Shown piece by piece: positions 27,212-47,914 of a DNA stretch of 64,000 nt (the stretch's first letter is position 1; every line of letters begins with the position of its first letter). Location: positions 2,048,001 to 2,112,000 of the forward strand of contig OY969763.1 in the NCBI GenBank assembly GCA_963702845.1, given 5' to 3'. The DNA comes from an uncultured Verrucomicrobiae bacterium. GTDB taxonomy: Bacteria; Verrucomicrobiota; Verrucomicrobiia; Limisphaerales; Palsa-1400. The notes beneath the pieces are model-generated. The model had not been told where the DNA came from, made no database searches, and saw only the letters and a list, made by a program, of their open reading frames with translations. The position numbers and the translations under genes are program-made.

Positions 27212-28908
27212 ATGGAATGGTTGGTTCAAACATTGCGGCAGTATCCGGAAATTGCGATTTTTCTCGCGCTGGCGGTCGGGTTTTGGATTGGGAATCTCAA
27301 GTTTGGCTCGTTTAGTCTTGGGGTTGTTACGAGTGTTTTGCTTGCGGGGGTTTTGATTGGACAACTTAAAATTCAAATCTCGCCGAATGTAAAATCGACA
27401 TTTTTTCTGATGTTCCTGTTCGCCGTAGGTTACGGGGTCGGCCCGCAATTTTTTCGAGGTCTCAAAAGTGGTGGGTTAAAACAGGTGTTATTTGCAGTGA
27501 TACTGGTCTTTTGTTGTCTGCTGACCGCTGTGCTCATGGGCAAGGTCCTGGGTTACGATGCCGGGTCGACGGCTGGGCTTCTTTCCGGAGCCTGCACCAT
27601 TTCGGCTGTGTTGGGTGTTGCGTCAGACACGATCAATCAATTGGCGATAACGCCGAGAACAAAAAACGCAATTGATCGACAACATGCCGGTTGCGTACGC
27701 CGTCACCTATTTGTTTGGCACGGCTGGTTCAGCGTGGATATTGGCTTCGCTGGGGCCAAAAATCTTGCGTGTTGATTTGCCGAAAGCATGCAAGGAATAC
27801 GAAGAAAAGATGGGCGGTATGGCACCGGACGATGGCATCGGCGTCGGCTTACACAGAGTGGCTGGTGCGTGCTTACAGGGTCAGCGGTGCAAGCGAGGTT
27901 CGGGACAAAACGGTTGAGGCAATCGAGGAGAGCTTCCGTCCGGATCGTGTGTTTATCGGTCGAATACGCCATGGAGAGCACATTACTGACGCAGAGCCTG
28001 CATCAGTGATTGCCGAAGGTGATGTTGTTGCGGTTGCGGCGCGTCGCAGCGTGCTGTTGCCGATCGAGCACCTTTTTGGAAAGGAAGTTGATGATCGCGA
28101 ATTGATGGATGTTGCCACGGAAACGTTGGACGTGGTCATAACACGCAAGGAGATTGTCGGTCGCACCATCAAAGAGATTGCCGGCTCGGACAAGATGCGG
28201 GAACACGGACGTTGCGTGTTTGCAAAAAAAATCATGCGTGGTGGGATCGAAATGCCCTTGCACCCGAATACAACCATTGACCGGGGCGATGTGGTCACGC
28301 TTGTGGGCGCACATAAGGATGTGGAGAACGCTGTCACGTTGCTTGGCTATGCAGATCGTACCACGGATAAAACCGACATGACGTTCATGGGCCTGGGAAT
28401 TGTGATTGGAGCATTGATTGGTGCTATCACACTTCACGTCGGGAAAATTCCTTTAAGCCTGAGTACTAGCGGAGGTGCGTTGTTTGCGGGACTCGTTTGC
28501 GGTTGGTTGCGTTCGGTTAATCGTGCCTTCGGGCAAATTCCGGCGCCTGCGTTGTGGGTCTTCAATAATGTCGGGCTGTGCGGCTTCATCGCGGTTGTTG
28601 GAATCACTGCCGGTCCGGGCTTTGTCGCTGGACTGAAAAGCAATGGCCTCACGCTTTTGCTCGCGGGCATCGTGGTTACGACGGTGCCGTTTATCGTTGG
28701 TTTGTTGATCGGTAAATATTTTTTCAAATTTCATCCCGCGATAAATCTGGGAGCTTGCGCTGGAGCGCGCACGACCACCGCAGCATTGGGGGCCATCGAG
28801 GAAGCAGCGCAAAGCAAAGTGCCGGCGTTGGGTTACACCGTTCCGTACGCCGTTGGAAATACGCTCCTGATTATCTGGGGCGTGGTGATCGTGATTATTA
28901 TGAAATGA
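27212..28908 (+). CDS. aspT: AspT/YidE-family antiporter 1 (frameshifts near 27660 and 27840)
   Basis: [26 protein letters not shown], two TrkA-C domains, [22 protein letters not shown]. Confidence 0.88.
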
Positions 28909-28923
28909 TTTTTGGGAGGATTT

Positions 28924-30357
28924 ATGAAATCGATACAAAGTTACCTGGGCGCACCGACGAAGAAACGAACCGCCGGAAAACCGCGCGTGCAGAAGCACTT
29001 TAATGTTCCGTCGGGTCTTCTCGACCAGTTCAATCTCGAGATTCCGGAAGAATTTCCAGAGCACTCGATCAATCCGCGAGCTGCGATGAACATCGTGAAC
29101 AGCGAGTCGTGGACCGACGCCAATCCGATGCTCAACTTGTCATCCTTCGTGACGACGTTTCATGAACCTGAAGAAGCCGAGGTGGCCAAGCAGAACATCA
29201 TGAAGAATTACATCGACCATGACATGTACCCGCAGGTCTTCGCGATGGAGAAGAAGATGGTCAAATGGCTGCATCATCTTTGGAATGGGCCGAAGAATGT
29301 TGAGCCATACGGGACGGCAACGATTGGGTCGTCGGAGGCCTGCATGCTCGCCGGTTTGGCGCATAAATGGAATTGGCGTGAAGCGAGAAAGAAGGCAAAG
29401 AAAGACTTCAGCAAGCCAAACATGGTCACAGGCGGCAACGTGCAAATCGTTTGGAAAAAGTTTCTGAAGTATTTCGATGTTGAACCACGAATCGCGCCGC
29501 TCGAGGTCGATAACTACCGACTGACGACAAAGCATCTCGAAAAGCTTGTGGATGAGAACACGATTTGTGTCGTGGCGATCGCGGGCCAGACGTTCACCGG
29601 CGAGGACGACGACATCCAGGAAATTCACGATTGGCTGGATAAATATGAGAAGCGAACGGGGATCAACATTCCGATGCACATTGATGGAGCTTCGGGGGCG
29701 TTTGTAAATCCATTCCTATATCCAGATTACAAATGGGATTTTCGTTTGCCGCGCGTGCAATCAATTAATGCTTCCGGACACAAATTCGGTCTCACGCCTC
29801 CCGGTCTCGGTTGGATTGTGTTCAAGGAACGCAAAATCTTTAATGAGGATCTGGTATTTTATGTGAACTATCTCGGTGGCGAACACCCGACGGCGACTTT
29901 AAATTTCAGCCGTAACGCGATGCAGATCGCGGTGCAGTATTATCTGTTCTTACGTCTCGGACGGGAGGGATACACCGCGATCATGGAGCACGCGGTCAAT
30001 AATGCGGAGAGGCTGCGTGAACAACTGGTTGAGAGCGGCTACTTCAACATCATGAACAAAACGCAACGCATTCCAGTGGTGGCGTTGACGCTAAAACCGC
30101 AGTTCAAAAATTTCAGCGAATACGATGTGTCTTCAAAAGTTCGTGAGCGCGGTTGGGTGTTATCTGCTTACACGATGCCGCCGAATGCGGAAGAAGTGCG
30201 CTCGTTGCGCATTGTCGTTCGGCCTCATCTCAATCGAAATGTCGTCGATATGCTTGCCAAAGATATCATCGAGGCTTGCGATTTTCTCAAGCGATTTGGC
30301 GGACACGTGCACCCGCCGCACCTGCATCCGGCCGGTCGGGTAACCACGAAGTGTTGA
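28924..30357 (+). CDS. gadB: Glutamate decarboxylase (PLP-dependent, group II)
   Basis: NLSSFVTT, KNYID..YPQ, GSSEACML, HIDGASG, SINASGHKFG (PLP Lys), YLGG...LNFSR; RBS GGAGG before the ATG at 28924. Confidence 0.9.
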   Translation: MKSIQSYLGAPTKKRTAGKPRVQKHFNVPSGLLDQFNLEIPEEFPEHSINPRAAMNIVNSESWTDANPMLNLSSFVTTFHEPEEAEVAKQNIMKNYIDHDMYPQVFAMEKKMVKWLHHLWNGPKNVEPYGTATIGSSEACMLAGLAHKWNWREARKKAKKDFSKPNMVTGGNVQIVWKKFLKYFDVEPRIAPLEVDNYRLTTKHLEKLVDENTICVVAIAGQTFTGEDDDIQEIHDWLDKYEKRTGINIPMHIDGASGAFVNPFLYPDYKWDFRLPRVQSINASGHKFGLTPPGLGWIVFKERKIFNEDLVFYVNYLGGEHPTATLNFSRNAMQIAVQYYLFLRLGREGYTAIMEHAVNNAERLREQLVESGYFNIMNKTQRIPVVALTLKPQFKNFSEYDVSSKVRERGWVLSAYTMPPNAEEVRSLRIVVRPHLNRNVVDMLAKDIIEACDFLKRFGGHVHPPHLHPAGRVTTKC

Positions 30358-30402
30358 TTTGGGGAACAAGCGAAACGTAACTAATGTGGGAGGAGGAGGA
30401 AT

Positions 30403-32086
30403 ATGGAGTGGATCAGGCAAATCTTTAAGGCAGCCCCGGAACTGGCGCTTTTTATCGCGCTGTTCCTGGGCCACGCCATCGGACGATTCAAGTTCAAAAA
30501 CTTTAGTCTCGGGGGTGTCGCTGGATCGTTGTTGGTGGCGTTGGTTATCGGGCAAATCGGAATCGATCTGCCGGAGGCCTTGAAGGCGGTGTGTTTCGCT
30601 CTTTTTATTTATTCCGTGGGGTTTCAGAGCGGTCCCGAGTTTTTCGGCCGTCTCGACCGATCCTCATTGAAGCTGGTCATGTCGTCGGTGTTTCAATGTG
30701 TCGTTGCGTTGATTTCAATTTTAGTCATCGCGAAAATCTGCGGCTTCAACAAAGGGTATGCTGTCGGAATGGGGGCAGGTGCATTGACGCAAACGGCGAT
30801 GATGGGCACGGCAGGTGACGCACTAAACAGGTTGGGATTATCTGCCGCCGACACGACAAATCTCACGAGCGAAATGGCGGTCGCGTTCGCCATTACGTAT
30901 GTATTCGGCACAGTTGGTGTGATCGTTTTTCTGCGCAGCATCGCCCCGCGGTTGATGGGGACGGATGTTAAGAAAGCGGCGAGAGAGCTTGAAGCAGAAC
31001 TGTCCGAGGGTGGAGAGGTGAAACGGCCAGGTTACATATCACCGTTTGTCCCGGTGGTTGCGCGGGCGTTTGTGGTCAAACAGGCGGCGAGCAAGACCAT
31101 TGCGGAAATCTCGCAGCGCCTCGAGCGGGCATCGGTCGAGCGAATTCTTCGCGATAATACGGTCATCGAAGTGAAGCCAGACTTCGTTCTGAAGCCGGAA
31201 GATATTGTAGCAGTTACCGGGCGTCTGGCCTCGGTCGTTGCTGCGGGAGACTTCATCGGGCCAGAGGTGGAGAACAAAGAAGCGCTGTCTTTTTCGATCG
31301 AGGTGACAAACGTTGTTGTAACCAATAAGCACATCATCGGAAAGACGTTGGGCGAGATTCGAGAAAACATTGGGACCAGGGATGTCGAAGCTGTTTACCT
31401 GGTCAGCATCAAACGCCAGGGTTTAGCGCTGCCCATTTTACTCCATACGGTAGTGCGAAGAGGTGACGTCGCGCAGCTGGCCGGGCGCCCTGGTGAGGTG
31501 CATAAGGCGGCTGACCTGATCGGTCGCTCAGAGCCGACCGGAGCAAAAAGCGACCTCGCTTACCATGCTCTTGGCATTGTCGTCGGAATTTTGGTTGGGC
31601 TGATTACGATCACTGTGGGCGGCATCCCGATAACATTGGGTATAGGAGGCGGCGTATTGGTGGTGGGACTTTGTTTCGGTTGGTTCCACGCACGGTATCC
31701 GGTGTTTGGGACGCTGCCGCAGGCGGCGCAGTGGATTCTGTCGGAGTTCGGATTGAGTGCGTTCGCCGCGATAATTGGACTCACCGCTGGGCCCAAAGCT
31801 CTCGCGGCTATTCAACAGCAAGGGCTGATCCTGCTTGTCGCGGGAGTAGTTCTGACTTTGGTCCCAATTGTTGCCACCCTCTACTTTGGCCGGTTCGTGC
31901 TCAAGCTGCATCCAGTCGTTTTACTTGGAGCGCTCTCAGGAGGACAAACGGTTGCTGCGTCGCTTGAATGCGGTGAATGAGGCGACTGACAGCATGACTC
32001 CTGTCCTGGGGTTCACTGTGGCGTATGCAATTTCAAATGTGCTGCTGGCGGTCTGGGGACCGTTGATCGTTGCGATTGTGAAATAA
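30403..32086 (+). CDS. aspT: AspT/YidE-family antiporter 2 (frameshift near 31965)
   Basis: LFIYSVGFQSGPEFF, AFAITYVFGTVG, TrkA-C domains, PVLGFTVAYAISN; RBS GGAGGAGG. Confidence 0.88.
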
Positions 32087-32106
32087 ATAAACTGAAAGGG
32101 AATATT

Positions 32107-33831
32107 ATGTTCGGTCCAGCTACAACTACTCGCGCGCACCAAAAAGCGCTGCTCAAACTCAGTCCGTTCGAATTGAAAGATGAACTCATCGCACTCGCTC
32201 AGGTGGCTGAGCGTGATGAAGTCGCGCAGTTCCTGAACGCTGGGAGAGGCAACCCAAACTGGCTTTGCACCACCGCTCGAGAGGCGTTTGGCACGTTGCT
32301 TCGTTTCGGGCTGGAGGAGGTGCGACGTGGCGTGAACATTCCTGATTTGGGTACAAAAATCTCGAGTAGTCCGGGAATCGCAAAACGGTTTTCGGGTTTT
32401 CTTGAAGCTAACCTCAAAACACCCGGCATTAAGCTGCTTCGGGAAACGTGGGATTACGGCATCAAGGATTTGAAGTTCGATCCAGACGCGTTTGCCTATG
32501 AACTTGCCGAAGGAATTATTGGCGATTTGTACCCTGTTCCGGACCGCATGTTGAGGTGCACGGAGAAAATCGTGCACGAGTTTCTGGTGCAGGAGATGTG
32601 CGCCGGGCGACCGCCAAAAGGCAAATACGATCTTTTCGCCGTCGAGGGCGGGACGGCGGCGATGTGTTACATCTTCGATACGTTGATGCAGAATTCATTG
32701 CTGCATCGTGGAGATACGATCGCTCTCGGAGTTCCGACTTTTACTCCTTACATCGAAATCGCGCACATGGATCGATTTAAGTTTAAGGTTGTAAACATCG
32801 ATGCAAGCGTGGAATGCCGGAAGGACGACACTCACACATGGCAATATTCCGACGAGGAAATTGATAAACTTGCCAACAAGAACATTAAGGCGTTCTTCCT
32901 CGTCAACCCGAGCAATCCACCTTCCTATGCGATGCGGACCAGTTCCGTGAAGCGAGTGGTGAATATCGTTAAGAATAAACGTCCGGATTTGATTATTATC
33001 ACAGATGATGTCTATGGAACATTTGTGCCGGGGTTCAGATCGTTGATGGCTGAGTTGCCGCGTAACACTATTGGCGTTTACTCGTATTCCAAGCATTTTG
33101 GTTGTACGGGCTGGCGACTGGGCGTGATTGCAGTCCATCAGGACAATATCTTCGATGAGATGCTAGCCAAGTTGCCGACAGCAACGCGCAAAGCGCTGAA
33201 CCACCGTTACGAACCTATTACGCTGGATCCCGAGAACTTAAAGTTCATCGACCGAATGGTTGCAGACAGTCGAATGGTTGCATTGAATCACACTGCCGGC
33301 CTGTCACTACCGCAGCAAATGCAGATGGCGTTGTTCTCGTCCTTCGCGCTGCTGGACAGAGCCAACAGTTACAAGTCGCTTTGCCAAATTATCGTGCGAC
33401 GACGATTCCAGGCATTGGCCGAAGGTTTAGGGCTCAAGTTCCCGCCGGACGACACGCGTGCGTACTATTACGTTCAGCTCGATCTGATGGTGTGGGCTGA
33501 GAAGGAATATGGGGCGGACTTCGCAGCGTTCTTACGGAAGAATTACGAATGCACCGACGTGCTGTTCCGCCTGGCTGAACACTCCGGCGTCGTTTTGATG
33601 CACGGAGGCGGCTTCGGTGGTCCTGATTGGTCGATTCGCGTTTCACTCGCGAATTTGGCAGAGGACACATATCCGAATATGGGCAGATACCTCCGTGAAG
33701 CGGCTCAGGCTTATGTCGACGAATGGAAGGCTTCAGGCGAAAGTTCTGCGCCAACGCACCCGCGTCGTCGCGCACCAGTTTTTACGCGCGCGGGCGCTCG
33801 CCGGCACCATTCGAAAAAGACGCGGCGCTAA
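32107..33831 (+). CDS. aspD: Aspartate 4-decarboxylase (bifunctional aminotransferase)
   Basis: LSPFELKD, NAGRGNPNW, EGGTAAM, VNPSNP, YSYSKHFG.TGWRLG, DRMVADSR, NHTAGLS.PQQ, RVSLANL. Confidence 0.93.
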   Translation: MFGPATTTRAHQKALLKLSPFELKDELIALAQVAERDEVAQFLNAGRGNPNWLCTTAREAFGTLLRFGLEEVRRGVNIPDLGTKISSSPGIAKRFSGFLEANLKTPGIKLLRETWDYGIKDLKFDPDAFAYELAEGIIGDLYPVPDRMLRCTEKIVHEFLVQEMCAGRPPKGKYDLFAVEGGTAAMCYIFDTLMQNSLLHRGDTIALGVPTFTPYIEIAHMDRFKFKVVNIDASVECRKDDTHTWQYSDEEIDKLANKNIKAFFLVNPSNPPSYAMRTSSVKRVVNIVKNKRPDLIIITDDVYGTFVPGFRSLMAELPRNTIGVYSYSKHFGCTGWRLGVIAVHQDNIFDEMLAKLPTATRKALNHRYEPITLDPENLKFIDRMVADSRMVALNHTAGLSLPQQMQMALFSSFALLDRANSYKSLCQIIVRRRFQALAEGLGLKFPPDDTRAYYYVQLDLMVWAEKEYGADFAAFLRKNYECTDVLFRLAEHSGVVLMHGGGFGGPDWSIRVSLANLAEDTYPNMGRYLREAAQAYVDEWKASGESSAPTHPRRRAPVFTRAGARRHHSKKTRR

Positions 33832-33832
33832 A

Positions 33833-34240
33833 CTAAGCTGCAGAGTGTTGCTTGCTGGCTTGTAAAGCTTTGGCCATTTCGTCGTCGGCTGGAATCTCGG
33901 GATGTTCTTCCGCGCCTTCCAGCCGAAATAACGAAACCTTGGCTGGCAGCTCTCCCATTACTTTCATAACTTCTGCCGCGGTTCCAAAAACGAATTCCTC
34001 TCGGCGTTCACGAATCGGCATCTGGTAGAAATGGCCGAGCGCGAGCCATTTGCCCGATCGACCCAGAATAAATTCATTGGCGCGCAGCTGCATATCTTCC
34101 GGGTCATAACCTTCTTGCAGGACGACATAGGGCCCGCCGTGGTCGCGTGGGTAGATTTCATTCGCCCGTCGCCAGGACGCCAGGCTGGCGAGTCGAACGT
34201 CATGGAAGTTGTTGGTGATGTTTCTTAGGTTTGCATTCAT
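33833..34240 (-). CDS. Hypothetical cytoplasmic protein, last gene of the minus-strand operon
   Basis: 135-aa ORF of normal composition, 45 bp downstream of sulP. Confidence 0.7.
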   Translation of the reverse strand: MNANLRNITNNFHDVRLASLASWRRANEIYPRDHGGPYVVLQEGYDPEDMQLRANEFILGRSGKWLALGHFYQMPIRERREEFVFGTAAEVMKVMGELPAKVSLFRLEGAEEHPEIPADDEMAKALQASKQHSAA

Positions 34241-34285: not shown

Positions 34286-35977
34286 TCACGTCGCGCCGTT
34301 AAACTCTTCGACTGCGTCGTTAACCGAATGTAGTCGGCTTATACCTCCAAGCTTATCGTCAACTTTTTCAATCCGCAAACGGTCACGGACCGAAGAACGG
34401 GCTTCGACCGCCTGGAATCGGATGCCGCGTGCCCGGATTTCGTCGGCGAGAGTGCCCAGCGCGAGTGAGCCCTGCAAATCGACGCGTGGCGCGGCGGAGA
34501 GATCGAGCACGACCAATTTTGGCGGTGGCTCCTCGGCGTTGACGCGGTCGAGAATCGTTTCACAAACATGGTCGATGTTGAAATAGACCAAACCAGACTC
34601 GGGTCGGAACAAGAGCACGCCCGTTATCAGCTCGTTATCCGGATGACGCAGCCGGTCAGAAAAGCGATGCGTGCCTGGGATTCGTCCGAGCTGTGCGACG
34701 TGCGGTTTCGAAGCGCTGCGTAGCAGCTGTACAAGCGAGATCACTGCCCCGATCAAAACACCGCGCAGCAGGCCGGAACTCATAACGCCGACCAGCGCGC
34801 CCACGGCCACGAAGAACTCGGAACGATCCTCGCGCCAGAGCTGTTTCAGAGTCGAAAGCTTGAACAAACCTGCGACTGCCGCGAGAACGATTGCGGCCAG
34901 AACCGGCTGGGGCAACGCGCTTAATACGTGTGAGAAAAAACATACAACGAGGATCAAAAGACCTGCGGCGAGCGCGGTGGACAGTGGCGTGCGCGCGCCC
35001 CCGGTTTCGTTCACGAGCGATTGAGACATGCCACCGCTTACAGGTAAACCTCTGCCGAGCGCAGCCATTAAGTTGCTGGCACTGAGCGCGAGAAACTCTT
35101 GATTGGCATCCAACCGATAACCGTGCGTTGCGGAGAACATTCGTCCAATCGCGGCAGTCTCAACGGCTGCGAGCAAAAAACAGGCGAGGGCAAGGGGAAG
35201 TAATTGATTCAGATCGGACCACGCAGTGCCCGGCAATCCGAGAGGCGGTAGTCCTTTTGGGATTTCTCCGAGCAGTTTGACTCCATGCTGTTCCAATCCA
35301 AATACGGACGCAGCGACGATTCCACCGATGACGACAAACAAGCCAACCGGTTTGTTTTTCAAAAACAATTTCCCGAAAACCAGAATGGCCAACGCAATTC
35401 CGCCGACCAGTAATGCCGATGGATTGGTTTCTTTCAGGTGTTGGATGAAATACGCGCTGTTTCGCCAGAAACTTCCGTGCTCGCCGTGAAACCCGAATAA
35501 TTTCGGCAATTGCGTGCTGGCAAGAAACAGAGCGACGCCGCATTTGAATCCAGTCATGACGCTTTCGGAGATGAAGTTCACAATGGCGCCCGCTTTAAAA
35601 AGCCACGCGAGGAACCCGATCAGAGCAACCAATATGGCTGTCGTTGCGGCAAGCGCTGCAAACCTCGTGCTGTCTCCTCCTGCGAGCCCGCCGAGCGTTG
35701 TGCCGAGAAGCAAAGAGATCGCAGACGTGACCGAAACCACAGTATGAGTGGAACTGCAGAACAGCCAAAAAACCAACCCGCTAAATAAACATGCGTACAG
35801 TCCCGCCTGAGGAGGCAAGTTCGCTAAAGTGGCGTCGCCGAGTGCTGCCGGTAACAAATATGCAGCAAGCGTGATCGCCGCGATCGCGTCGTAACGCGCC
35901 CACCCCTTTTCGTAGCGAGGCAGCCAACGGAAGGCTCGAATCAAACCGGTCCTTACCAATGTGCCATTCCTCGTCAT
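34286..35977 (-). CDS. SulP/SLC26 anion transporter with STAS domain
   Basis: PQAGLYA, NFISESVMTGF, DANQEFLAL, SGGMSQS, C-terminal VVLDLSAAP.VD; ATGA overlap with the upstream gene. Confidence 0.9.
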   Translation of the reverse strand: MTRNGTLVRTGLIRAFRWLPRYEKGWARYDAIAAITLAAYLLPAALGDATLANLPPQAGLYACLFSGLVFWLFCSSTHTVVSVTSAISLLLGTTLGGLAGGDSTRFAALAATTAILVALIGFLAWLFKAGAIVNFISESVMTGFKCGVALFLASTQLPKLFGFHGEHGSFWRNSAYFIQHLKETNPSALLVGGIALAILVFGKLFLKNKPVGLFVVIGGIVAASVFGLEQHGVKLLGEIPKGLPPLGLPGTAWSDLNQLLPLALACFLLAAVETAAIGRMFSATHGYRLDANQEFLALSASNLMAALGRGLPVSGGMSQSLVNETGGARTPLSTALAAGLLILVVCFFSHVLSALPQPVLAAIVLAAVAGLFKLSTLKQLWREDRSEFFVAVGALVGVMSSGLLRGVLIGAVISLVQLLRSASKPHVAQLGRIPGTHRFSDRLRHPDNELITGVLLFRPESGLVYFNIDHVCETILDRVNAEEPPPKLVVLDLSAAPRVDLQGSLALGTLADEIRARGIRFQAVEARSSVRDRLRIEKVDDKLGGISRLHSVNDAVEEFNGAT

Positions 35978-36633
35978 AATTGAACCGGCAAATACAATAG
36001 TCGGACCGCTGCGAAAACGAATGCACCGAGGCCGAGGAGAAGAACGGCTTGATGAATCCAACCGGTTTGAAACCTCGATGCAGCCCCTGAGAAGAAGAGG
36101 GCGGCGGCGAGCGAGACGGTCAGCAGAACGTAGCTCCGCGAGTTCCGTCCGGCTTCACCAGCTTTCTCCCAGAACCGCTCGCTTTGGATTTCATCTTCGC
36201 GCGACTGCTCCAACAGCTTCGGCTGGTACAGATTGGTAACGAACGGATGAGGTGGCGCGTTAGAGTTTTTGAACGGTTGCATCGCTATCCATTTTTCAAA
36301 TGCGCTTTTGGCTTCGGCACGAAACCGCGTCGCGTAAAAGTCAGCGAGCGCTGCGTTCGAACTGGACCGAGCATTGACGTACTCGCTGAAAAGCATCACA
36401 TCGATCGATGCAAGTTGATAACTCTTCAATTGAGCGGTGACGCTGCGACGACTTGCGGTGGCCGACATATTCATCGTGCGTTGTGAAACCCCGCTCCAAA
36501 CTGCCGCCTGAAAAGAGCACCACGCTGTCCCAACCGTTGCGAGTGAAAGCAGAACTAGAGCGACGGCCTCAAAGACGGGTCCCCTGCGTTTCTTTTCATG
36601 GCCAATACTTTGCTTCTGGGCTTCGTCGCTCAT
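35974..36633 (-). CDS. Hypothetical membrane protein (about 3 TM)
   Basis: One N-terminal TM (LATVGTAWCSFQA), a helical loop and two C-terminal TMs; translationally coupled to sulP. Confidence 0.7.
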   Translation of the reverse strand: MSDEAQKQSIGHEKKRRGPVFEAVALVLLSLATVGTAWCSFQAAVWSGVSQRTMNMSATASRRSVTAQLKSYQLASIDVMLFSEYVNARSSSNAALADFYATRFRAEAKSAFEKWIAMQPFKNSNAPPHPFVTNLYQPKLLEQSREDEIQSERFWEKAGEAGRNSRSYVLLTVSLAAALFFSGAASRFQTGWIHQAVLLLGLGAFVFAAVRLLYLPVQL

Positions 36634-38953: not shown

Positions 38954-41900
38954 CAGTGTCCCTCCTTGTGGTTTTCACCTCCTGCGACCACGACGTTCGA
39001 GGTAGCAGATGCCGGTTTCTTGCGCTCAATGATCTTCTGCACAAAAACGTAACAGACAGGAATGATGAACAGCCCCAGGACCGTTGCGATGGTCATGCCG
39101 AAAACAACGCCTGTACCCATGGTGCTGCGGGCGGCGGCTCCGGACCCGGAAGCCAGCATCAACGGAACAGAACCGAGGATGAACGCGAATGAGGTCATCA
39201 GGATCGGTCGCAGCCGTAACTTGGCTCCTTGTATCGCCGCTGGGATGATGTCCATTCCCTTCTCATGTTCGGCTTTCGCAAATTCGACAATCAGGATTGC
39301 GTTTTTCGCTGCCAATCCGATCAACATCACTAATCCGATTTGAGCATAGACATTCAGATCAAAACTCCGGACCAGCATGCCGATCATCGTGCCGAGAATG
39401 ACTGTTGGCGTCGCAAGCAAAACAGAGAAAGGCAGTCCCCAACTTTCGTACTGCGCCGCGAGTAACAGGAAAACAATCACGATCGCCATGCCGAAGATGA
39501 TCGGCGCCTGGCCTTCGGATTTTTTTTCCTGCAGGGTCAACCCGGACCATTCGTAACCAATGCCGCTCGGCATCGTTTTCATTACCTCTTCAATCGCCTT
39601 GATCGCTTGAGCTGAGCTGTAGCCCGGCGCCGGCGCACCCATGATTTCCGCAGCGTTATAAAGATTGAATCGCATGACGAAGTTCGGCCCGGTCATCTTG
39701 CCGATTGTGACCAGCGTGTTCAGCGGCACCATGTTGGTGTAGTTGTTGCGAACATAGAACTGGCCGATGTCGCTGGGCTGGCTCGTGAACTGCGGCTCTG
39801 CTTGAAGGAACACTTTATAGACGCGGCCAAACCGGACGAAGTCGTTTACGTATAGTCCGCTTAAATATGTCTGCAACGTCGAGAAAACGGAATCGATTGG
39901 AACACCCAACGTCCGCGCCTTTTCGCGATCCAGTTCGACTTTCACCTGCGGCGTTGCTGGATTGAACGTCGTGGTGATGCGGCCGAGTTCCGGGCGTTTG
40001 CTCGCGGCCGCCAGGAACTGCTTAATATTTTTCGCCAATTCATCAATGCTTCCGCCGGTGCGGTCTTGCACCTGCATAGAAAAACCCGAAACGTTGCCGT
40101 AGCCGGGCAGGGGAGGTGGTCCAAAGGAAAAGGCCCGCGCATCGGCGATGCTTTGGAATTTTTTATTCCATTCCATAGCCAAGGCTTTGGCATGGAGCGC
40201 AGAACCCTTCCGTTCGTCCCAATTTTTGAGGCCGACAAACATGAGCGCCGCATTCGGGAAGTTGAGCGAGTTCATGATATTCATACCGGCCAGTCCGACA
40301 TACGAGCGCACCCCTTCGGTGTTCCCGACAATCTCTTCAACTTGTTTAAGAACCTGGTCCGTGCGCTGCAACGACGTGCCTTCCGGCAATTCGACAGACA
40401 CGAATAAGTAACCTTTGTCCTCATCCGGAATGAAGCCGCCGGGCACGAATTTGCCGATGATAAAGACGCCAACAACTACGGCAACCAGCAGTAACATCGA
40501 GAGCGATGCCTTTCGGCTCATCCCTCCGACCAATGCGCCATACTTATTGATCGTCCAATCAAATCCTCGATTGAACAGTTTGAAAAATTTTGCAACCGGC
40601 CCGCGCCCGGGTTTTGGTTTGCGCAACATTTTCGCCGCCAAAGCCGGGCTGAGCGTCAGCGCGTTGATGACTGAAAACACCACAGCAACCGCGATCGTTA
40701 ACGCAAATTGCCGGTAAAGCTGGCCTGTGACACCGCCCATGAACGCTACCGGGACGAACACTGCGCAGAGCACCAAACCGATCGCCACGACCGGCCCCGA
40801 AACTTCTTTCATCGCCTGCCTCGTGGCTGCGGTCGGATCAAGTCCATGTTCGATGTGATGTTGTACCGCTTCAACGACGACAATGGCGTCGTCCACGACA
40901 ATACCGATTGCCAGCACAAGTCCGAACAAAGTCAGAACGTTGACGCTAAATCCAAGCGGCGGGAACATGATGAAAGCGCCAAGCAACGAGACAGGAACCG
41001 TCAACATCGGAATGATCGTTGCGCGAAAACTTTGAAGAAAAATGTAAACAACAACCAGGACCAGCACCACAGCTTCCAGAAGCGTGTGAATGATTTCGTG
41101 CATAGATGCTTCGATCGGCAGGGTCGAATCCAGCGTGATATCGTAGATCATGTCAGGTGGAAACTTCTCTTTGGCATCTTCCAAAATCTTTTTTACGTTC
41201 GCCGCCGTTTCCAAAGCATTTGCTCCAGGAGCCAAATAAATTCCGATTGCACCTGCGGGTGACTTGTTCAGTCGAGCGCGAAGATCGTAGGTTTGCGCGC
41301 CAAGTTCGACGCGACCAATGTCTTTGATCTTCACCTGGGAACCATCCGGATTGGATCGGATGATGATCTCGGCAAATTGTTTTGGGTCCTTGAGCAAACC
41401 GAGTGTGCGAACGTTGAATGTCGTTTGTTGTCCTTTAGGAGCGGGTTCGGCACCGATGCGTCCCGCCGGCGCCTGAGCGTTTTGTTCTTTAAGCGCTTTT
41501 TGGATGTCGTCCGGTGTGACTCCAAGCGACGCCAGCTTGTCAGGACGCAACCAGAGTCGCATCGAATAATCCTGCGCAGTGAAGTTTTTAACATCGCCGA
41601 CGCCACGCACGCGTTTGATCGCGTCAACCAGATTGATGTCGCAATAATTGCCGAGAAAAACTGCGTCGTAAGTTCCTTTCGGCGACGCCAACGCCACCAC
41701 CATTAAAATGTCCGGACTCGAACGATTAACGACAATGCCTTCTCGCTTCACCGCATCAGGCAATTGGGCTTCCGCCTGGCCGACGCGGTTTTGTGTATTT
41801 ACCTGCATGATGTCGACGTCCGTCCCGACATCGAAATAAACATTGAGCGTCAGCTTGCCGTCGTTGGCGTTGTACGACTGGATGTAGAGCAGTTTGTCGA

Positions 41901-42114
41901 CACCATTAACCTTTGATTCAATAGGCGTAGCGACGGATTCCATCACTGCTTCTGCAGCAGCGCCGCGATACGTTGTCGTCGCTTGAATCAGCGTCGGGCT
42001 AACCGGAGGGTATTCGGAAATCGGTAACCGCTTCAGAGCCACAAACCCGACGATCACGGTGAGGATGGCGATGACCATCGCAACAATCGGACGTCGAATG
42101 AAAAAGTCCGCCAT
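38953..42114 (-). CDS. RND efflux permease, HAE1 family
   Basis: [38 protein letters not shown]. Confidence 0.95.
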
Positions 42115-42117
42115 AAC

Positions 42118-43307
42118 CTATTGTTTCTCCGCCGCGTTTTCGGTCTTCTGCCCAGCCGAGCCAGCGGGCACCGGTTCCACCACCGCGCCGTCGCGGAGTT
42201 TCTGCAAACCTTCAACAACAACGGGCTCGCCAGCTTTCAATCCTTCTGTAATCAAAACAGCCCCGCCGATTGTTTCGCCGACAGTCACCGGCCGTTGCAC
42301 TGCTTTGTTCTCAGGCCCAACGACCCAGACGAAGTTTTTTCCCTGCAATTCGGAGATTGCGCCTTCAGGAATGAGAATGCTGTTCTGCCGAACGCCGAGA
42401 TCGACTTCCAATCGTCCGAACATTCCGGGGCGAAGACGCTTTTCTGTGGTTCGGAAATTCGGCGCGGACTCGCAATGTTCCAGTCTTGGCGTCAACAGCA
42501 CGATCCATGAACACGATTTTCCCTTTGTCTGGAAGTCGCGAGCCATCTGCCAAAATGAGATACACTGGAACCTGTTCCAACTTCTCTCCTCTGACGCTGT
42601 AACTCCTGTTGCGCCTTGAGGTATTGAACTTCGCTGATCGCGCAATAGAACCAGATCGGATCAAGCTTCGAAATGGTCGCAAGCAATGTCGGCTGTCCCT
42701 TGCCAACCAGTTCACCAATCGACACTTGTTTTGCGCCAATCAGACCAGTGATCGGCGCGCGAATGTCGCAGTAACCCAAATCCAACTGCGCCGTCTCCAC
42801 ACGCGCCTGCGCCGAATCAATCTCGGCATTGGCAACATCCACCGCAGCAAGTGCGTTATCCAGGTCCTGTTGTGGAACAGCCTTTTTCTTTGCAAGGGGA
42901 GTAAGGCGTGCAACGTCAGTCTCGTGCTTCGCTAAAGCTGCTTTGGTTTGAGCGAGCATGCCTTTGGCAGCAGCCAAACGTTCCTTGAACGGCTTTTGAT
43001 CCAGCAGGAACAATTGATCTCCTTCGTGCACCTCAGTGCCTTCGATAAAAAGCATTTTGTCGACGAATGATTCGACACGCGCGCGTATCTCGACGTTTTG
43101 CGGCGAGTCGAGTTGACCGATGATTTCTGTTTTCATCGGAGCGTTTGTTGTCGTGACTTTCATTACTCCAACCGTTGGCGGCAGTGGCGCTGGCGGAGCG
43201 GCCTTTTTGCAACTGGTGGCTACAAGAAATAGGGAAGATGCGCAGGACAATATCAGTGCTTGCCGAACCCACGGCATCGTGTTCCTTTTTGATGCAATTG
43301 CTTTCAT
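42118..43307 (-). CDS. RND periplasmic adaptor (frameshifts near 42590 and 42450)
   Basis: ATSC lipobox, IRARV, IRAPITG, DRAVDAKTGTL, LRPGMF, spread over three overlapping ORFs. Confidence 0.87.
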
Positions 43308-44011
43308 ACGGTAGTTGGAGGGCTAGGAGGTTGGTCAGAGCGGGACGCTAAGACCTGAAGCGGTTGCACAGCTCCAGTGCGCCAATTGAAGAGAATCGCC
43401 AGCAGGCGAAAGCCAAAGATCACAGCCATCGAAATCCACTCCGCAACCCTGGGTTTTACAAGAGTTCGGTACTCAAGCGAAAGGAACACCGCGCAACCCA
43501 GCAGCGATGCAATGACGTAAAACTGTCCCGGTTTGAAAAGCAACGGCTCTTCCCGGGTAAGGACGTCACGCAGCAAACCGCCGCCCGAAGCATTTACGAC
43601 ACCAACCATAATTGCTGAAGGCACACTCATTTCGGCATGAAGTCCCTTTAGCAACCCAACCATAGTATACGCGCTCAACCCAACAGCATCCAACACGGCG
43701 ATAACCCGGTGAAAACGAACGATCCAGTGGTTTACCACCCAGCCCAAAAAGCACGCTAAGACTATGATAGGCAGAAATTGCCAATTCTGTGTGAGCGCCG
43801 GAGGTCCGTTCTGGAGAAAAATGCCATCGCGAATCAAGCCGCCACCCGCTCCCGTGACCAGCGCCAGAATAAATACGCCGATGAAATCGTATCCCCGCCG
43901 CATTGCTGCGATAACTCCCGACATCGAGAACAACAGGATCGCCACCAGGTCAAAGCCAATCGGTATCCGGATCTGGTTCTGTTGCAAATATTCCCGAAGT
44001 TCGTAGCTCAC
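43304..44011 (-). CDS. TRIC/UPF0126 (YadS-like) trimeric channel family protein
   Basis: Duplicated GGG.xRD motifs (GAGGGLIRD, SGGGLLRD), DAVGL; about 7 TM. Confidence 0.85.
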   Translation of the reverse strand: MSYELREYLQQNQIRIPIGFDLVAILLFSMSGVIAAMRRGYDFIGVFILALVTGAGGGLIRDGIFLQNGPPALTQNWQFLPIIVLACFLGWVVNHWIVRFHRVIAVLDAVGLSAYTMVGLLKGLHAEMSVPSAIMVGVVNASGGGLLRDVLTREEPLLFKPGQFYVIASLLGCAVFLSLEYRTLVKPRVAEWISMAVIFGFRLLAILFNWRTGAVQPLQVLASRSDQPPSPPTTV

Positions 44012-44135: not shown

Positions 44136-45618
44136 TTAGTCTTCGAAAAGCTTCCAATTGAACCCAAGCTGAAGCCGAAACACATTGCCTGTCATCACTG
44201 TCTTTTACTTCTTTCTTTCCATACAGACCCTCAAATCCAATGCTCAGTCGCTTTCGGAGTTGATAGATCACGTTAAGCGCTAGAGTAGAAGGTTTTGTGG
44301 TAGGCCAGTGGGCCCTCAGAAAATTCGTTATCCAAATGGACGTATCCGACTGTTGCGGTCGACCGCCATTTATCCGTCCATTGATGGGTATAACCCAGCA
44401 TTCCGGAGAAGCATTTCATAGCCTCTAGTTTGCCCGAACTGTCGAAAGCCGCATCGCCGCCGTTAAATCCAGGGTAGGTAAAGTTGTCGTTCATATAATG
44501 AAAATAGCCACGACCGTAGGTGCCCTGCGCCTGTAGAGAGTCCTTGCAAAAAACGTTAAGACTTGTGGCAGCCATCAAGCCGTAGCCAAAGACGCTTTGC
44601 TTTCCAAGCTCTGGACTATCAGCACCAATATCGCGAAGAATTGCAGCGACTTGGACATGCCCGATTTTTTTGTCTTCCCATCGGAAGTTCAGGCCGCCAT
44701 CCGGTGCGTGATTCTCGGCGCATGACATTCGGAACATTGACCGTGTCAATATCAGAGGCAGGCTGCTGAATACCAAAGTTCACCTCCCAATGTTCGTTCA
44801 ACGCCAGCAGATACCGCACAGTCGCTTGTCGTGCGAATATCATTGAGTTCGGCCCTTCGAAATCGACAGTGTCCGGCCAAACGTCCGGATCTTCGAAAAT
44901 GCTGTAATGTAAAGCCGGCGGTAACATTGTAGTACTGTCCCCAGAGTTGCTTCAGGCGATAGCCAGCTTGAATACCTGTCCCGCCGCCAAAGAAATCGTT
45001 GTCGTAATAAAATCGCGGGTCGCCCGGAAAGTCAGGAGCCCTCACATCGACGCTCAGCGATGACCCGCGAGTGTTTGCATTAAATTGATTGCCGTGTCCG
45101 TAAGTTGACTCGCCTTTAACTGGAATTTGTGCAGTCACAAAGCGGTCCGGATTCCCGGAATTGCGATTATCGTCAGTAAAATCGGCCCGCACTCTTGCAT
45201 TGAATTTGAGAAACGCGGGCGTGTTTGGGATTGGGATATAACCCTTGTATTGCGGATCGAGAGTAACGTTGTCGGGACGCGGCGCGGATTGCTGGTAATC
45301 TTTGCCTGTTTCACGTAGAGTGATTTGGCTCGCCTGCGGCGCGACCGTAATTGTTGGCACCACGAAATGAACCCCTGCCTTGTTCGTTATCCCGAGTGTT
45401 GCAGCTACGGATTGTAGCGACGGCGGCTGCTCTTCTTTTTTTGCCTGCGGTTGTTCTTTTTTTAAATCATTAATCTGCTGCTGCATATTGGTGACCATTT
45501 GCTGCATCGCTTGCAGTTGTGCCTGCAACTGCTCAATAGATGGGGTTTGCGTCTGTGCTCTCGCGACGCATGTTAGCGTCGCGCACAGAGCGATGAGGAG
45601 TCGTTGCTTGATTTTCAT
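44136..45618 (-). CDS. DcaP-like outer-membrane porin with N-terminal coiled coil (about 4 frameshifts)
   Basis: Signal peptide, Gln-rich coiled coil, DRFVTAQIP, YYDNDFFG, PDTVDFEGP; reconstructed C-terminus ...GNVFRLQLGFNWKLFED* with TAA at 44136-44138. Confidence 0.75.
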
Positions 45619-45619
45619 G

Positions 45620-46834
45620 TTATCGAGAACTGATCCGGGCGTTTACGTGGGGAGAACCGAAAATGTTTAAACCGAGCTGGGTATCGATGTAGTTGATCGC
45701 TTCCGTCGCTCGTATGCTGTTGCCCGCTTCGTTAAGAGGAGGCGCAAAACCAACGATCGCCATTTTCCCTGGCACTACGGCTACGATCCCGCCACCAACG
45801 CCGGTTTTGGCCGGAAGACCTGCGGTGTAAGCCCATTGACCCGATTCATCGTAGAAACCCGCCATGGTCATGACAGCCAGAACGCGAGGGACGTGTTTTT
45901 CGTCAAGGCAACGCTCCTTGGTTTTCGGATTAACGCCGCCATTGGCCAGCGTCGCTCCCATCATCGCAAGCTGCTTCGCGGTCACGCCGATCGAGCATTG
46001 CTTTGTATAAACATCACAAGCCTCAGGCCCGTCACAAAAAAGGTTTTTATTGTTCAACAGAATCTCTGCGATACCGCGATTGCGGAAATTCGATTCAGCT
46101 TCGGATTTATAGACTTCGTCGATCAGTTTGAGTTCTTCGCCGGCAAATTTGCTTTGGTAAGCGAGAATTTTTTGCCATCGGTCATCCGCGCCGCTGGCTT
46201 TGACCAGGCTGACACTGGCGATAGCCCCGGCGTTGACGAGAGGGTTGATCGCTTTGTTATCGTGCAGGCCCAACGCAACAATGGAGTTGAACGGCATTCC
46301 TGTCGGTTCCACTCCGATTTTCTTTAACACCGCTTCCTCACCGAATTCCTGCATCACTTGCGCGAGCGTGAACACTTTCGAGCAGGATTGGATCGAGAAC
46401 GAATAATCGACATCGCCGGCGGTATACACGTGTCCGTCTACCGTCACGATCGCAACTCCGAACAACTTCGAAGGAACACTCGCGAGATACGGAATATAAT
46501 CCGCGTTTTTGCCCGAGTTGTCGTTTTGAAAACGCTGATGCGCTTCATCGACGACTCGTTGCAATGTATCAGCCGACGGCATATTTGCCGCTGTTGTGCT
46601 CGACCCCGCCGGTTCCAAAGGCGTTATCTTCGTCGGGGCCTCATAAGTAATTGTCCCCGATGTCGCTGTCTGTATCGGTGCGGTCGAACCTATATGAGTC
46701 GTCGTGCTAATGCTGGTATAACTCGGCGACCCTTTTTTGTTTTCTTTCGTTGAGCATGCAACCAGCAGTGAACAGCACAACGCTGTGACCGCTGTGCCGA
46801 AAACAAAACGATGAATGACACTAGTTGATTTCAT
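45620..46834 (-). CDS. glsA: Glutaminase A with lipoprotein signal peptide
   Basis: ADYIPYL, FSIQSCSKVF (SxxK), EPTG.PFNS, NPLVNAGAI, PAKTGVGGG, GNS; N-terminal LLVAC lipobox and Ser/Thr linker. Confidence 0.92.
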   Translation of the reverse strand: MKSTSVIHRFVFGTAVTALCCSLLVACSTKENKKGSPSYTSISTTTHIGSTAPIQTATSGTITYEAPTKITPLEPAGSSTTAANMPSADTLQRVVDEAHQRFQNDNSGKNADYIPYLASVPSKLFGVAIVTVDGHVYTAGDVDYSFSIQSCSKVFTLAQVMQEFGEEAVLKKIGVEPTGMPFNSIVALGLHDNKAINPLVNAGAIASVSLVKASGADDRWQKILAYQSKFAGEELKLIDEVYKSEAESNFRNRGIAEILLNNKNLFCDGPEACDVYTKQCSIGVTAKQLAMMGATLANGGVNPKTKERCLDEKHVPRVLAVMTMAGFYDESGQWAYTAGLPAKTGVGGGIVAVVPGKMAIVGFAPPLNEAGNSIRATEAINYIDTQLGLNIFGSPHVNARISSR

Positions 46835-46855
46835 AACATTCCCCTTTGGTTCGAA

Positions 46856-47914
46856 TTAATATTGATAGAACAGTTCTTGCAGCTGTTTAGGTTCCTGCGT
46901 TTGCGTCAGCCCGAGCATAAGAAGAATGCGCGCCTTTTGTGGATTGAGTTCCATCGCCGCAATGAAACCCATGTCGTCGTCCTTGATTTCGACATTCCGA
47001 TCCACGATTCCGCTACCCACGCGCGAACTGCGAACCACAGCCACTCCCTGCTGCGCCGCTTTTTTCAAAGCCTCTAATGCGGCGTCAGTCGTGTTGCCGT
47101 CGCCCACGCCAGCCAGGATAATTCCCTTGGCGCCGCGTTTTACAGCGTCTTGGATCGTGTTGCCTCCGAAGTTCGCGTAGGAATAAACAATTTCGACATA
47201 CGGCAGTTTGTCCACGGTGAGATCGTCAACTGAGAACTGGCTTTGTGTTGTGCGCTTTGTCGTCAGCGGATCGTAGAAGTAGGCCTTGCCCACATTCATC
47301 ACCCCCGCAACTCCGCGATTGGGCGATTTAAAAGTGTCCAGGTGCGTCGTGTGTGTTTTCGTTGTCTCGCGACCGTACTGGAAATTGTCATTGAGAACGA
47401 CTAACGGTCCGAGACCTTTTGCACGCGGATTTCCAGCCAGGGCGACCCCATTGTACAAATTCGCTGGCCCATCCGCGCTGATCGCCGTTGCCGGACGCAT
47501 TGATCCGACCAGGATCACGGGCTTGTCACTCTTGACTACCAGGCTGAGGAAGTAGGCCGTCTCCTCCATTGTGTCTGTTCCGTGAGTGATCACGACCCCA
47601 TCAGTGTCGCCGGCCAAAACTTCATTAACCCGTTTCGCAAGCTTCAGCCAAACCTCGTGGTTCATCGTTTGCGAGCCGATGTTTGCCACCTGTTCGCCTG
47701 AAAGTTCTGCAAGGTTGGTCATGGCCGGCACGGCTTTGATGAGATCATCCACGGAAAATGTCCCGGATTTATAGCCGGCCTCCGCTGTGCTTGATTGCGC
47801 CCCGGCAATCGTTCCACCGGTGGCAAGAATCTTGATTTTAGGTTTCCCATCGGCCGCGAGCGTTATCGCCAAAGCCGCCAACACCCCAATCGCACACACG
47901 TGTAATCTTTTCAT
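46856..47914 (-). CDS. ansB: Type II (secreted) L-asparaginase
   Basis: Signal peptide; ATGGTIAG, HGTDTMEET, SADGPANL, LNPQKARILL. Confidence 0.92.
   Translation of the reverse strand: MKRLHVCAIGVLAALAITLAADGKPKIKILATGGTIAGAQSSTAEAGYKSGTFSVDDLIKAVPAMTNLAELSGEQVANIGSQTMNHEVWLKLAKRVNEVLAGDTDGVVITHGTDTMEETAYFLSLVVKSDKPVILVGSMRPATAISADGPANLYNGVALAGNPRAKGLGPLVVLNDNFQYGRETTKTHTTHLDTFKSPNRGVAGVMNVGKAYFYDPLTTKRTTQSQFSVDDLTVDKLPYVEIVYSYANFGGNTIQDAVKRGAKGIILAGVGDGNTTDAALEALKKAAQQGVAVVRSSRVGSGIVDRNVEIKDDDMGFIAAMELNPQKARILLMLGLTQTQEPKQLQELFYQY

What the first reader, a model, noticed from the sequence alone, without database searches (positions are those of the whole stretch)
27212..47914. Candidate two-track amidase/decarboxylase acid-survival island (Asn-Asp-Ala and Gln-Glu-GABA) with its own porin, channel, pump and PPK2
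Seen: two operons converge with stop codons 1 bp apart (33831/33833). Plus strand: aspT-gadB-aspT-aspD. Minus strand, 11 closely spaced or overlapping genes: ansB-glsA-porin-TRIC-MFP-RND-OMF-ppk2-membrane protein-sulP-hypothetical. Established: Gad and AspD consume a cytoplasmic proton per turnover, AspT exchanges Asp for Ala, asparaginase and glutaminase release ammonia, and DcaP porins pass small anions. Inference: a complete symmetrical relay. Porin entry is followed by periplasmic deamidation (ammonia buffering), antiport, proton-consuming decarboxylation and product export, with TRIC, SulP and PPK2 balancing charge and energy. The parts are known separately; I do not know this combined architecture to be described.
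Basis: partly seen in the sequence, partly recalled or inferred. Interest (0 to 1): 0.85.

Follow-up and report, generated by a model that had tools for sequence, protein, structure and literature searches.

The report
Exported amidases feeding decarboxylase-exchanger cycles
This bacterium and five other genomes keep genes for two signal-peptide-bearing amidases, a DcaP-type porin, two amino-acid decarboxylases and AspT-family exchangers together, which likely turn outside glutamine and asparagine into GABA and alanine to remove cytoplasmic protons and energise the membrane, using an AspT-type carrier where textbook systems use GadC.

Summary
The 15 genes are real and correctly named. The core (AnsB, GlsA, DcaP porin, AspT, AspD, Gad) recurs as one co-oriented run in five other genomes, so the convergent layout here is a rearrangement. 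Three features depart from known systems. The YbaS-like glutaminase has a lipoprotein signal (105 of 120 homologues have a signal-like N-terminus). No GadC was found here, and AspT-family carriers sit beside this Gad clade even in genomes with no AspD. The Gad clade replaces Glu89 with Met (81 of 81) and ends Lys-Cys. Best reading: periplasmic deamidation feeds decarboxylation/antiport, consuming one cytoplasmic proton and likely generating membrane potential per turnover. 'Acid-survival island' is too narrow: deamidation is proton-neutral above pH ~4.5, a haloalkaliphile carries the Gad-AspT pair, and composition is host-like. TRIC, SulP, PPK2 and RND roles are unshown. About nine frameshifts break both aspT genes, the porin and the MFP; essential genes are broken too, so assembly error is likely. 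This scan noted Gad plus AspT before on other DNA (e1-5206950); a look-up for the exported-glutaminase front end returned nothing. New variant of a known kind.

The parts
27212..28908 (+). aspT1: AAEx-family exchanger, clade A (hairpin motifs T-I-S and R-T-T-T); predicted Glu:GABA exchanger, possibly also Asp:Ala; two frameshifts near 27690 and 27840 as assembled
28924..30357 (+). Glutamate decarboxylase of a distinct clade; intact; keeps Asp86, Lys276, Arg422 (E. coli numbering), has Met for Glu89 and a Lys-Cys end
30403..32086 (+). aspT2: AAEx-family exchanger, clade C (T-Q-T and Q-T-V-A), 36% identical to aspT1; likelier Asp:Ala type; one frameshift near 31965
32107..33831 (+). AspD, aspartate 4-decarboxylase; intact
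33833..34240 (-). 135-aa soluble hypothetical; homologues beside the cluster in G633 and G098
34286..35977 (-). SulP-STAS anion transporter; substrate unknown (bicarbonate or dicarboxylate are guesses)
   Evidence: 69% homologue in the G771 cluster
35974..36633 (-). 219-aa membrane protein, three predicted hydrophobic segments, unnamed family (DUF4337-like lead)
36655..37479 (-). Polyphosphate kinase 2 (TIGR03707 type)
   Evidence: 74-77% homologues beside the cluster in G062, G633, G771
37496..38953 (-). Outer-membrane factor (NodT type)
38953..42114 (-). RND permease (HAE1 type); substrate unknown
   Evidence: 81-88% homologues in L215, L217, L164
42118..43307 (-). RND periplasmic adaptor; at least two frameshifts near 42500-42600
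43304..44011 (-). UPF0126 protein (prokaryotic TRIC cation channel family; Pfam name Gly_transporter)
44136..45618 (-). DcaP-type porin with N-terminal coiled coil; four frameshifts as assembled; intact in relatives
45620..46834 (-). GlsA, YbaS-like glutaminase (54% identical) with a lipoprotein-type signal (Cys27) and a Ser/Thr/Pro-rich tether; predicted periplasmic
46856..47914 (-). AnsB, type II asparaginase with signal peptide; predicted periplasmic

Best explanation
This is a conserved gene cluster that likely runs an amide-fed decarboxylation/antiport cycle: glutamine and asparagine would enter through the DcaP porin, be deamidated in the periplasm by the exported GlsA and AnsB, be imported as glutamate and aspartate by AspT-family exchangers, be decarboxylated by Gad and AspD, and leave as GABA and alanine. 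Shown: the genes, their families, the N-terminal export signals, their co-occurrence, and that no GadC was found. Established: each decarboxylation consumes one cytoplasmic proton, and Asp(-)/Ala(0) exchange by AspT is electrogenic and generates proton-motive force. Inferred: aspT1 (clade A) exchanges Glu for GABA and may also serve AspD; aspT2 is the likelier Asp:Ala carrier; the amidases mainly supply substrate and ammonium rather than buffer; the cycle serves pH homeostasis under mild acidity and membrane energisation when respiration is limited, not only extreme-acid survival. TRIC, SulP, PPK2 and the RND pump are accessory genes with untested roles.
For: The full core lies in one co-oriented run in L023/G062, L025/G063, L077/G098, G771 and G061. 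In a 301-genome order sample, AspT over cut-off and this GlsA type occur in the same 4 genomes. An AspT lies within 1.5 kb of gad in 48 of 80 clade loci vs 1 of 29 canonical Gad loci. GadC was not found in this genome. Among 50 Gad-clade genomes chosen for a nearby AspT, GadC is over cut-off in 1 and AspD is missing in 20. Four genomes (G084 complete, G086, G090, G092) have a single AspT, beside gad, with no AspD or GadC. 105 of 120 GlsA homologues have a hydrophobic N-terminal extension, 93 with a lipobox-like motif; E. coli YbaS has none. A porin follows glsA directly in 13 of 21 metagenome loci with room. AspT/AspD generate proton-motive force (PMC12462496, passages). Periplasmic deamidation before uptake is known in C. 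jejuni (PMC4178425, passages). No GabT over cut-off and no urease were found in this genome.
Against: No activity, expression or transport was measured. Both aspT genes and the porin are frameshifted as assembled. Transporter assignment is not clean: clade A also sits beside aspD with no Gad nearby (L110, L113), and clade C and its sister group occur in genomes with no AspD (L028, L047, L100) or with neither decarboxylase (G633). Asp86, which restricts E. coli Gad to acid pH, is kept in 81 of 81, so the enzyme may still be acid-gated. Signal peptides were judged by a simple heuristic and by eye. The 50 genomes were selected for a nearby AspT, and many are incomplete MAGs. Exported GlsA also occurs with canonical Gad plus GadC (L169, L170) or alone (L172, L173).
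Confidence: 0.55

Rival explanations
1. It is a dedicated acid-resistance island, induced and useful only at low pH, with ammonia from deamidation as a main buffer, like E. coli AR2_Q.
For: GlsA is YbaS-like (54%) and YbaS is active at pH 4-6 (PMC6250119, passages). Gad keeps Asp86. Related loci carry a small ion channel (L079), a Na+/H+ exchanger (L099) and carbonic anhydrase (L102). Many hosts are soil Acidobacteriota and Paraburkholderia by record title.
Against: Deamidation is proton-neutral above about pH 4.5 (established chemistry). H. salifodinae IM328, isolated at pH 8.5, has the same Gad and AspT types. Glu89 is Met in 81 of 81 and the penultimate His is absent; changes at these positions broaden the pH range of E. 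coli Gad. This counter-evidence concerns the Gad-AspT pair, not the full cluster.
Confidence: 0.22
2. The amidase-porin half is mainly a nitrogen and carbon scavenging unit (NH4+, Asp and Glu uptake) that can be joined to different downstream routes; the decarboxylases are an optional add-on.
For: In G633 the same ansB-aspT2-glsA-porin block follows dcu and aspartate ammonia-lyase, and neither AspD nor Gad was found (89% complete). In L155 ansB heads its own unit. Periplasmic AnsB and GGT feed growth in C. jejuni.
Against: In this genome and five others all four enzymes are clustered. Exchange-coupled export of GABA and Ala discards the carbon and the alpha-nitrogen.
Confidence: 0.11
3. The copy in this genome is decaying after a rearrangement: enzymes are intact but the exchangers, porin and adaptor are true pseudogenes.
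For: About 9 frame changes in about 18.5 kb of cluster genes against 5 in 25 kb of housekeeping genes. G771 also has broken aspT1 and aspD.
Against: The essential genes secY, rplN and rpoC are frameshifted too (3 of 33 genes), and SMC in the window is split. The excess is not significant (one-sided binomial p 0.085 for 9 events). G771 is also a single-contig assembly. No in-frame stops were reported in gad or aspD.
Confidence: 0.08
4. The Gad-like enzyme acts on aspartate or sulfinic amino acids (giving beta-alanine or hypotaurine), so AspT still carries aspartate-like substrates and there is no glutamate track.
For: It sits beside Asp:Ala-family exchangers. B. fragilis Gad accepts such substrates (PMC12961736, passages).
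Against: All glutamate-site residues tested are kept (Phe63, Asp86, Gln163, Phe317, Ser318, Arg422 in 81 of 81). Loci with gad plus glutaminase but no AspD exist (L046, L099, L101).
Confidence: 0.04

Closest known systems
Glutaminase-dependent acid resistance AR2_Q (YbaS/GlsA, GadB, GadC; E. coli, Brucella, Bacteroides; PMC6250119, passages)
   Same: YbaS-like glutaminase clustered with a group II glutamate decarboxylase; Gln to Glu to GABA; an ion-channel gene nearby in some members.
   Different: No GadC found; AspT-family carriers instead; glutaminase carries an export signal; DcaP porin; a parallel Asn/Asp track; Gad has Met89 and a Lys-Cys end.
AspT/AspD proton-motive cycle of Tetragenococcus halophilus (TC 2.A.81; TIGR03801/TIGR03802; PDB 8XW5, 8Y1X; PMC12462496, passages)
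   Same: AspD and AspT over their cut-offs; aspT2 directly before aspD; Thr130, Tyr167, Leu431, Phe434, Gly439 and Thr496 positions kept.
   Different: Two AspT types; aspT1 has Ile for Gln131 and Arg for Asp495 and pairs with Gad; upstream periplasmic amidases and a porin.
Periplasmic deamidase plus uptake systems of Campylobacter jejuni and Helicobacter pylori (secreted AnsB, GGT; Dcu, Peb; PMC4178425, passages)
   Same: Asn and Gln are deamidated outside the cytoplasm and the acids are imported.
   Different: Glutaminase is GlsA-type rather than GGT; products go to decarboxylases with product exchange rather than to catabolism.
Acinetobacter baumannii DcaP porin (PDB 6EUS)
   Same: Best fold match of the intact homologue; N-terminal coiled coil.
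   Different: 19% identity; selectivity untested; here linked to glsA.

Membership tests
AR2_Q (GlsA-GadB-GadC) | Group II PLP glutamate decarboxylase with intact active site | tested here: met
   TIGR01788 over cut-off; Lys276, Asp86, Arg422 kept
AR2_Q (GlsA-GadB-GadC) | GadC antiporter | tested here: not met
   No TIGR00910 match at E 0.001 in the 89.8% complete single contig
AR2_Q (GlsA-GadB-GadC) | YbaS-type glutaminase without export signal | tested here: not met
   YbaS-like catalytic domain (Ser66 and Lys69 kept) but 84 extra N-terminal residues with a lipobox
AR2_Q (GlsA-GadB-GadC) | His465 plug and Glu89 that shut Gad above pH 5.5-6 | tested here: not met
   Met at 89 in 81 of 81 (Glu in 29 of 29 controls); most C-termini end Lys-Cys; functional effect untested
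AR2_Q (GlsA-GadB-GadC) | Amino-acid-dependent survival at pH 2.5 | not testable with these tools
   needs cells
AspT/AspD cycle | AspD (TIGR03801) adjacent to AspT (TIGR03802) | tested here: met
   755/435 and 568/547 bits, 20 bp apart
AspT/AspD cycle | Aspartate-site residues of T. halophilus AspT | tested here: inconclusive
   aspT2 keeps Thr130, Gln131, Tyr167, Thr496 but has Thr132, Phe163, Ala498; aspT1 keeps Thr130, Ser132, Tyr163, Tyr167, Thr496 but has Ile131, Arg495
AspT/AspD cycle | Intact exchanger reading frame | tested here: inconclusive
   Frameshifted as assembled; housekeeping genes too; no reads of this strain
AspT/AspD cycle | Electrogenic exchange measured | not testable with these tools
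   needs proteoliposomes
Type II periplasmic asparaginase | TIGR00520 over cut-off, signal peptide, catalytic Thr motifs | tested here: met
DcaP porin | PF19577 and DcaP barrel fold | tested here: met
   On intact homologues; the window's pieces are 61-86% identical to the modelled one
TRIC channel | UPF0126 duplication; cation conductance | tested here: inconclusive
   Matches solved prokaryotic TRICs at E 1e-14 to 1e-19, but the same family is named Gly_transporter; conductance untested
Horizontally acquired genomic island | Atypical composition, att repeat, integrase | tested here: not met
   only patchy distribution supports lateral gain

The most novel reading that the evidence does not exclude
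A widespread, uncharacterised third route for amino-acid-driven proton removal and energy conservation: an exported YbaS-type glutaminase, often a lipoprotein, works beside a DcaP porin to feed an AAEx-family Glu:GABA exchanger (Arg in hairpin 2) and a Gad clade naturally active near neutral pH, in parallel with an Asn-Asp-Ala track, letting soil and sediment bacteria charge their membrane from amides without respiration.
Probability: 0.3. Interest if true: 0.75.

Novelty: new variant of a known kind. Interest (0 to 1): 0.5.

Why it matters
If right, it adds a Glu:GABA activity to the AAEx family, whose aspartate site is now solved, so the Arg and Ile changes are directly testable. It means surveys that require GadC miss many glutamate-decarboxylation systems in environmental bacteria. 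It puts a GlsA-type glutaminase in the periplasm, which I did not find in the searched papers. A natural Gad without Glu89 and His465 is a candidate neutral-pH enzyme for GABA production. It also predicts that some soil Verrucomicrobiota release GABA, alanine and ammonium from amides.

Tried and rejected
Composition, tetranucleotide and att-site tests found no island signature. The repeat search found no repeat pair at the convergent junction among those listed. Promoter scans and FNR/CRP-like patterns upstream of aspT1 and ansB gave nothing useful. Sequencing runs: no RNA holder listed; one soil DNA run with a 0.07 share, whose short pieces could not test the frameshifts. Plasmid collection: 1 record with this Gad at E 1e-150, with no annotation under the match. 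The second RND pump at 19173-24906 has a closer paralogue elsewhere in the genome (61%) and lies beyond a tRNA and a lectin-like gene, so I left it out, although it is the better match to the RND genes in L023 and L054. The 219-aa and 135-aa proteins got no Pfam or NCBIfam family; an Atlas search with a homologue gave unnamed clusters and a DUF4337 lead (27% of members). Sequence search of the PDB missed DcaP; the fold search found it. A first all-against-all ORF clustering was swamped by shadow frames and was replaced by tblastn maps. The Castellaniella paper (PMC12915299, passages) does not describe this cluster. The primary H. pylori deamidase paper was not seen. No complex prediction was run. 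Acid-soil enrichment could not be tested because no pH data were available.
Full report
What is there. All 15 genes are present in the stated order. Gad, AspD, AnsB, GlsA and PPK2 pass their NCBIfam cut-offs and are intact; aspT2 passes TIGR03802, and the two pieces of aspT1 score 199 and 397 bits. The two stops are 1 bp apart. The host is a 6.03-Mb single contig, 89.8% complete; named homologues point to Verrucomicrobiota, probably Limisphaerales (inference). Gad, GlsA, AnsB, AspD and the porin are single-copy.

Frameshifts. aspT1 has two frame changes, aspT2 one, the porin four and the MFP at least two. In 33 housekeeping genes (25,052 bp) there are five, in secY, rplN and rpoC. Nine in about 18.5 kb is not a significant excess (p 0.085; 0.13 for eight, 0.052 for ten). 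A close metagenomic relative has an intact 481-aa porin (L155). Assembly error is the likelier cause, but no reads of this strain were available.

Conservation. The Gad query gave 129 relatives in GTDB genomes, of which the best 80 were kept (69-86% identical). Within their 10-kb flanks: AspT 66, AspD 23, OMF 14, SulP 11, RND 10, GlsA 8, porin 6, PPK2 6, TRIC 5, AnsB 4 of 80; many loci are cut short by contig ends. The full core of AnsB, GlsA, porin, AspT, AspD and Gad lies in one co-oriented run in five other genomes: L023/G062, L025/G063, L077/G098, G771 and G061, whose two contigs join by a 55-base exact overlap inside aspT2. G062 and G061 read aspT1-gad-aspT2-aspD-ansB-glsA-porin-tric (G062 has a second aspT2), which is the window's order with the ansB half turned round. 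G771 adds ppk2, sulP and an 84% identical RND in the same run. In L155 ansB heads its own unit behind an unrelated gene, so the split is not unique to this assembly. Partial forms exist: L079 lacks ansB, L158 has no Gad within 21 kb, and G633 joins ansB-aspT2-glsA-porin to dcu and aspartate ammonia-lyase with neither decarboxylase found.

Distribution. AspD over cut-off was found in 0 of 60 relatives, this GlsA in 0 of 30 family members, and this Gad clade in 0 of 400 phylum genomes, where the best other Gad is 48% identical. In a 301-genome order sample AspT over cut-off and this GlsA type fall in the same four genomes, G000, G633, G653 and G771; G653 and G098 share a 108,071-bp contig and appear to be one genome. 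Composition is host-like and there is no att repeat. Lateral spread with amelioration is my inference from patchiness and 70-85% identity across phyla.

AspT in place of GadC. No GadC was found in this genome. I searched 50 of the 80 genomes, chosen for a nearby AspT: GadC is over cut-off in 1 (any match at 1e-25 in 5) and AspD is missing in 20. An AspT lies within 1.5 kb of gad in 48 of 80 clade loci and in 1 of 29 canonical Gad loci. A tree of 105 AspT proteins with at least 430 aligned residues, read at the binding positions of T. halophilus AspT (PMC12462496, passages; mapped through), separates types. aspT1 belongs to clade A (n=44, support 1.0), with T-I-S in hairpin 1 and Arg at the Asp495 position. 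Five clade-A members sit beside gad in genomes without AspD, and in four of these it is the only AspT. A second Arg-bearing clade (n=20) lies directly beside gad in every member. aspT2 falls in a group (n=24, support 0.96) that keeps Gln or Glu at position 131 and includes the exchangers found directly before aspD with no gad nearby. This fits a Glu:GABA role for aspT1 and an Asp:Ala role for aspT2. Against a clean split: clade A is the only AspT in many aspT-aspD-gad operons and sits with aspD alone in L110 and L113; eight aspD-linked members of the aspT2 group also carry the Arg; and relatives of aspT2 occur without AspD. Kin are not independent, so I give no statistic.

The Gad. It forms one clade of 81 (support 0.91) and keeps every catalytic and glutamate-site residue checked, including Asp86. 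It differs from 29 canonical controls by Met for Glu89 and Ser for Ala61 (81 of 81), and most members end Lys-Cys rather than His-Thr. In E. coli, His465 closes the site above pH 5.5, Asp86 limits activity to acid pH (PMC12961736, passages), and Glu89Gln with a C-terminal deletion extends activity to pH 7 (PMC4335662, passages). The signals are mixed, so the pH range is open; a terminal Lys or Cys could act as a plug (speculation).

The amidases. GlsA is 54% identical to E. coli YbaS but has 84 extra N-terminal residues: a hydrophobic stretch, a lipobox-like Cys27 and a Ser/Thr/Pro tether. Of the best 120 homologues, 93 have a lipobox-like motif and 12 more a hydrophobic extension; 15 do not meet the heuristic, several of them looking like truncated start calls. 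By eye, 21 of 26 metagenome loci show a signal-like N-terminus and the other 5 are cut by contig ends. A porin follows directly in 13 of 21 loci with room (two more have it overlapping or upstream) and ansB precedes in 10 of 19. AnsB has a signal peptide and is type II. The porin models as a DcaP barrel; anion preference of DcaP is recalled, not tested.

Mechanism. Net per glutamine: Gln(out) + H2O + H+ gives GABA(out) + NH4+(out) + CO2, and likewise Asn to Ala. Above about pH 4.5 the deamidation step takes up no proton (established chemistry), so the gain comes from decarboxylation and from anion-for-neutral exchange, the cycle that drives ATP synthesis in T. halophilus. The same cycle protects against acid, so the two readings differ in when it runs. 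Haloalkaliphilic H. salifodinae IM328 (PMC11256830, whole text) has the Gad and clade-A AspT, and the label prefixes of two more carriers (L058, L060) occur in soda-lake papers (search listing only). That argues against an acid-only role for the pair. No GabT over cut-off (best 268 of 507 bits) fits GABA export; no urease was found; KdpB is present. For the accessory genes I can only offer leads: carbonic anhydrase, an ion channel and a Na+/H+ exchanger occur in related loci; that SulP proteins can carry bicarbonate or dicarboxylates, and that E. coli keeps the RND pump MdtEF in its acid fitness island, is recalled.

Novelty. Seven full-text searches found no paper on this cluster, on Gad with AspT, or on a periplasmic GlsA-type glutaminase (listings only, except the papers named here). 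The AR2_Q survey (PMC6250119, passages) has no mention of aspartate, porin, asparaginase or signal peptide in its main text; its supplements were not read. The library lacks most subscription journals. This scan noted Gad plus AspT on other DNA (e1-5206950) and long-form decarboxylases with AspT, porin and TRIC (e1-2333312); look-ups for the exported-glutaminase combination returned nothing. Verdict: a real, conserved, apparently undescribed combination of known mechanisms with two testable departures; new variant of a known kind, interest 0.5.

Noticed in passing
L109:8922-11762, L121:12337-15156, L120:2546-5267, L026:16-1968: Long (about 945 aa) Orn/Lys/Arg-type decarboxylases beside AspT and AspD; the best PDB match is 9N0N/9N0O (E 1e-226), which earlier scan notes call a glutamate decarboxylase. 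They may fill the Gad slot in loci that looked aspD-only.
   Followed up: partly
L215:487-9128 (G633): dcu, an aspartate ammonia-lyase with a 150-aa N-terminal extension, then ansB-aspT-glsA-porin with no decarboxylase found in the genome.
   Followed up: partly
L169, L170: 9974-13713: Signal-peptide GlsA joined to canonical Gad and GadC, so exported glutaminase also occurs in GadC systems.
   Followed up: no
L028, L034, L037, L047, L050, L074, L088, L093, L100, L111, L115-L119: Tandem pairs of divergent AspT paralogues after gad or before aspD; possible heterodimers or split substrate roles.
   Followed up: no
L077, L106, L215, L104, L216: DUF3302-HlyD-OMF, DUF3300-DUF2950, bestrophin-like and AI-2E genes recur near these clusters.
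   Followed up: no
   Followed up: partly
window 2865-5941: PafA-like ligase and proteasome alpha- and beta-like genes (Pup/UBact-type system) by sequence appearance; not scanned.
   Followed up: no
window 7082-10863: SMC gene split into three frames, consistent with assembly indels.
   Followed up: partly
window 19173-26977: A second RND-MFP-OMF pump, tRNA-Arg(TCT) at 24998-25074 and a secreted protein with lectin-like repeats (four related stretches elsewhere in the genome) flank the cluster.
   Followed up: partly
window 48333-55100: DUF937, YidB, a double helix-hairpin-helix protein and two histidine kinases (one split) lie on the ansB side; a regulatory link was not tested.
   Followed up: no
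L022, L106 (G061): A record titled Bifidobacteriaceae carries a porin, OMF and an 86% identical Gad in a 4.9-Mb genome; probably mislabelled.
   Followed up: no
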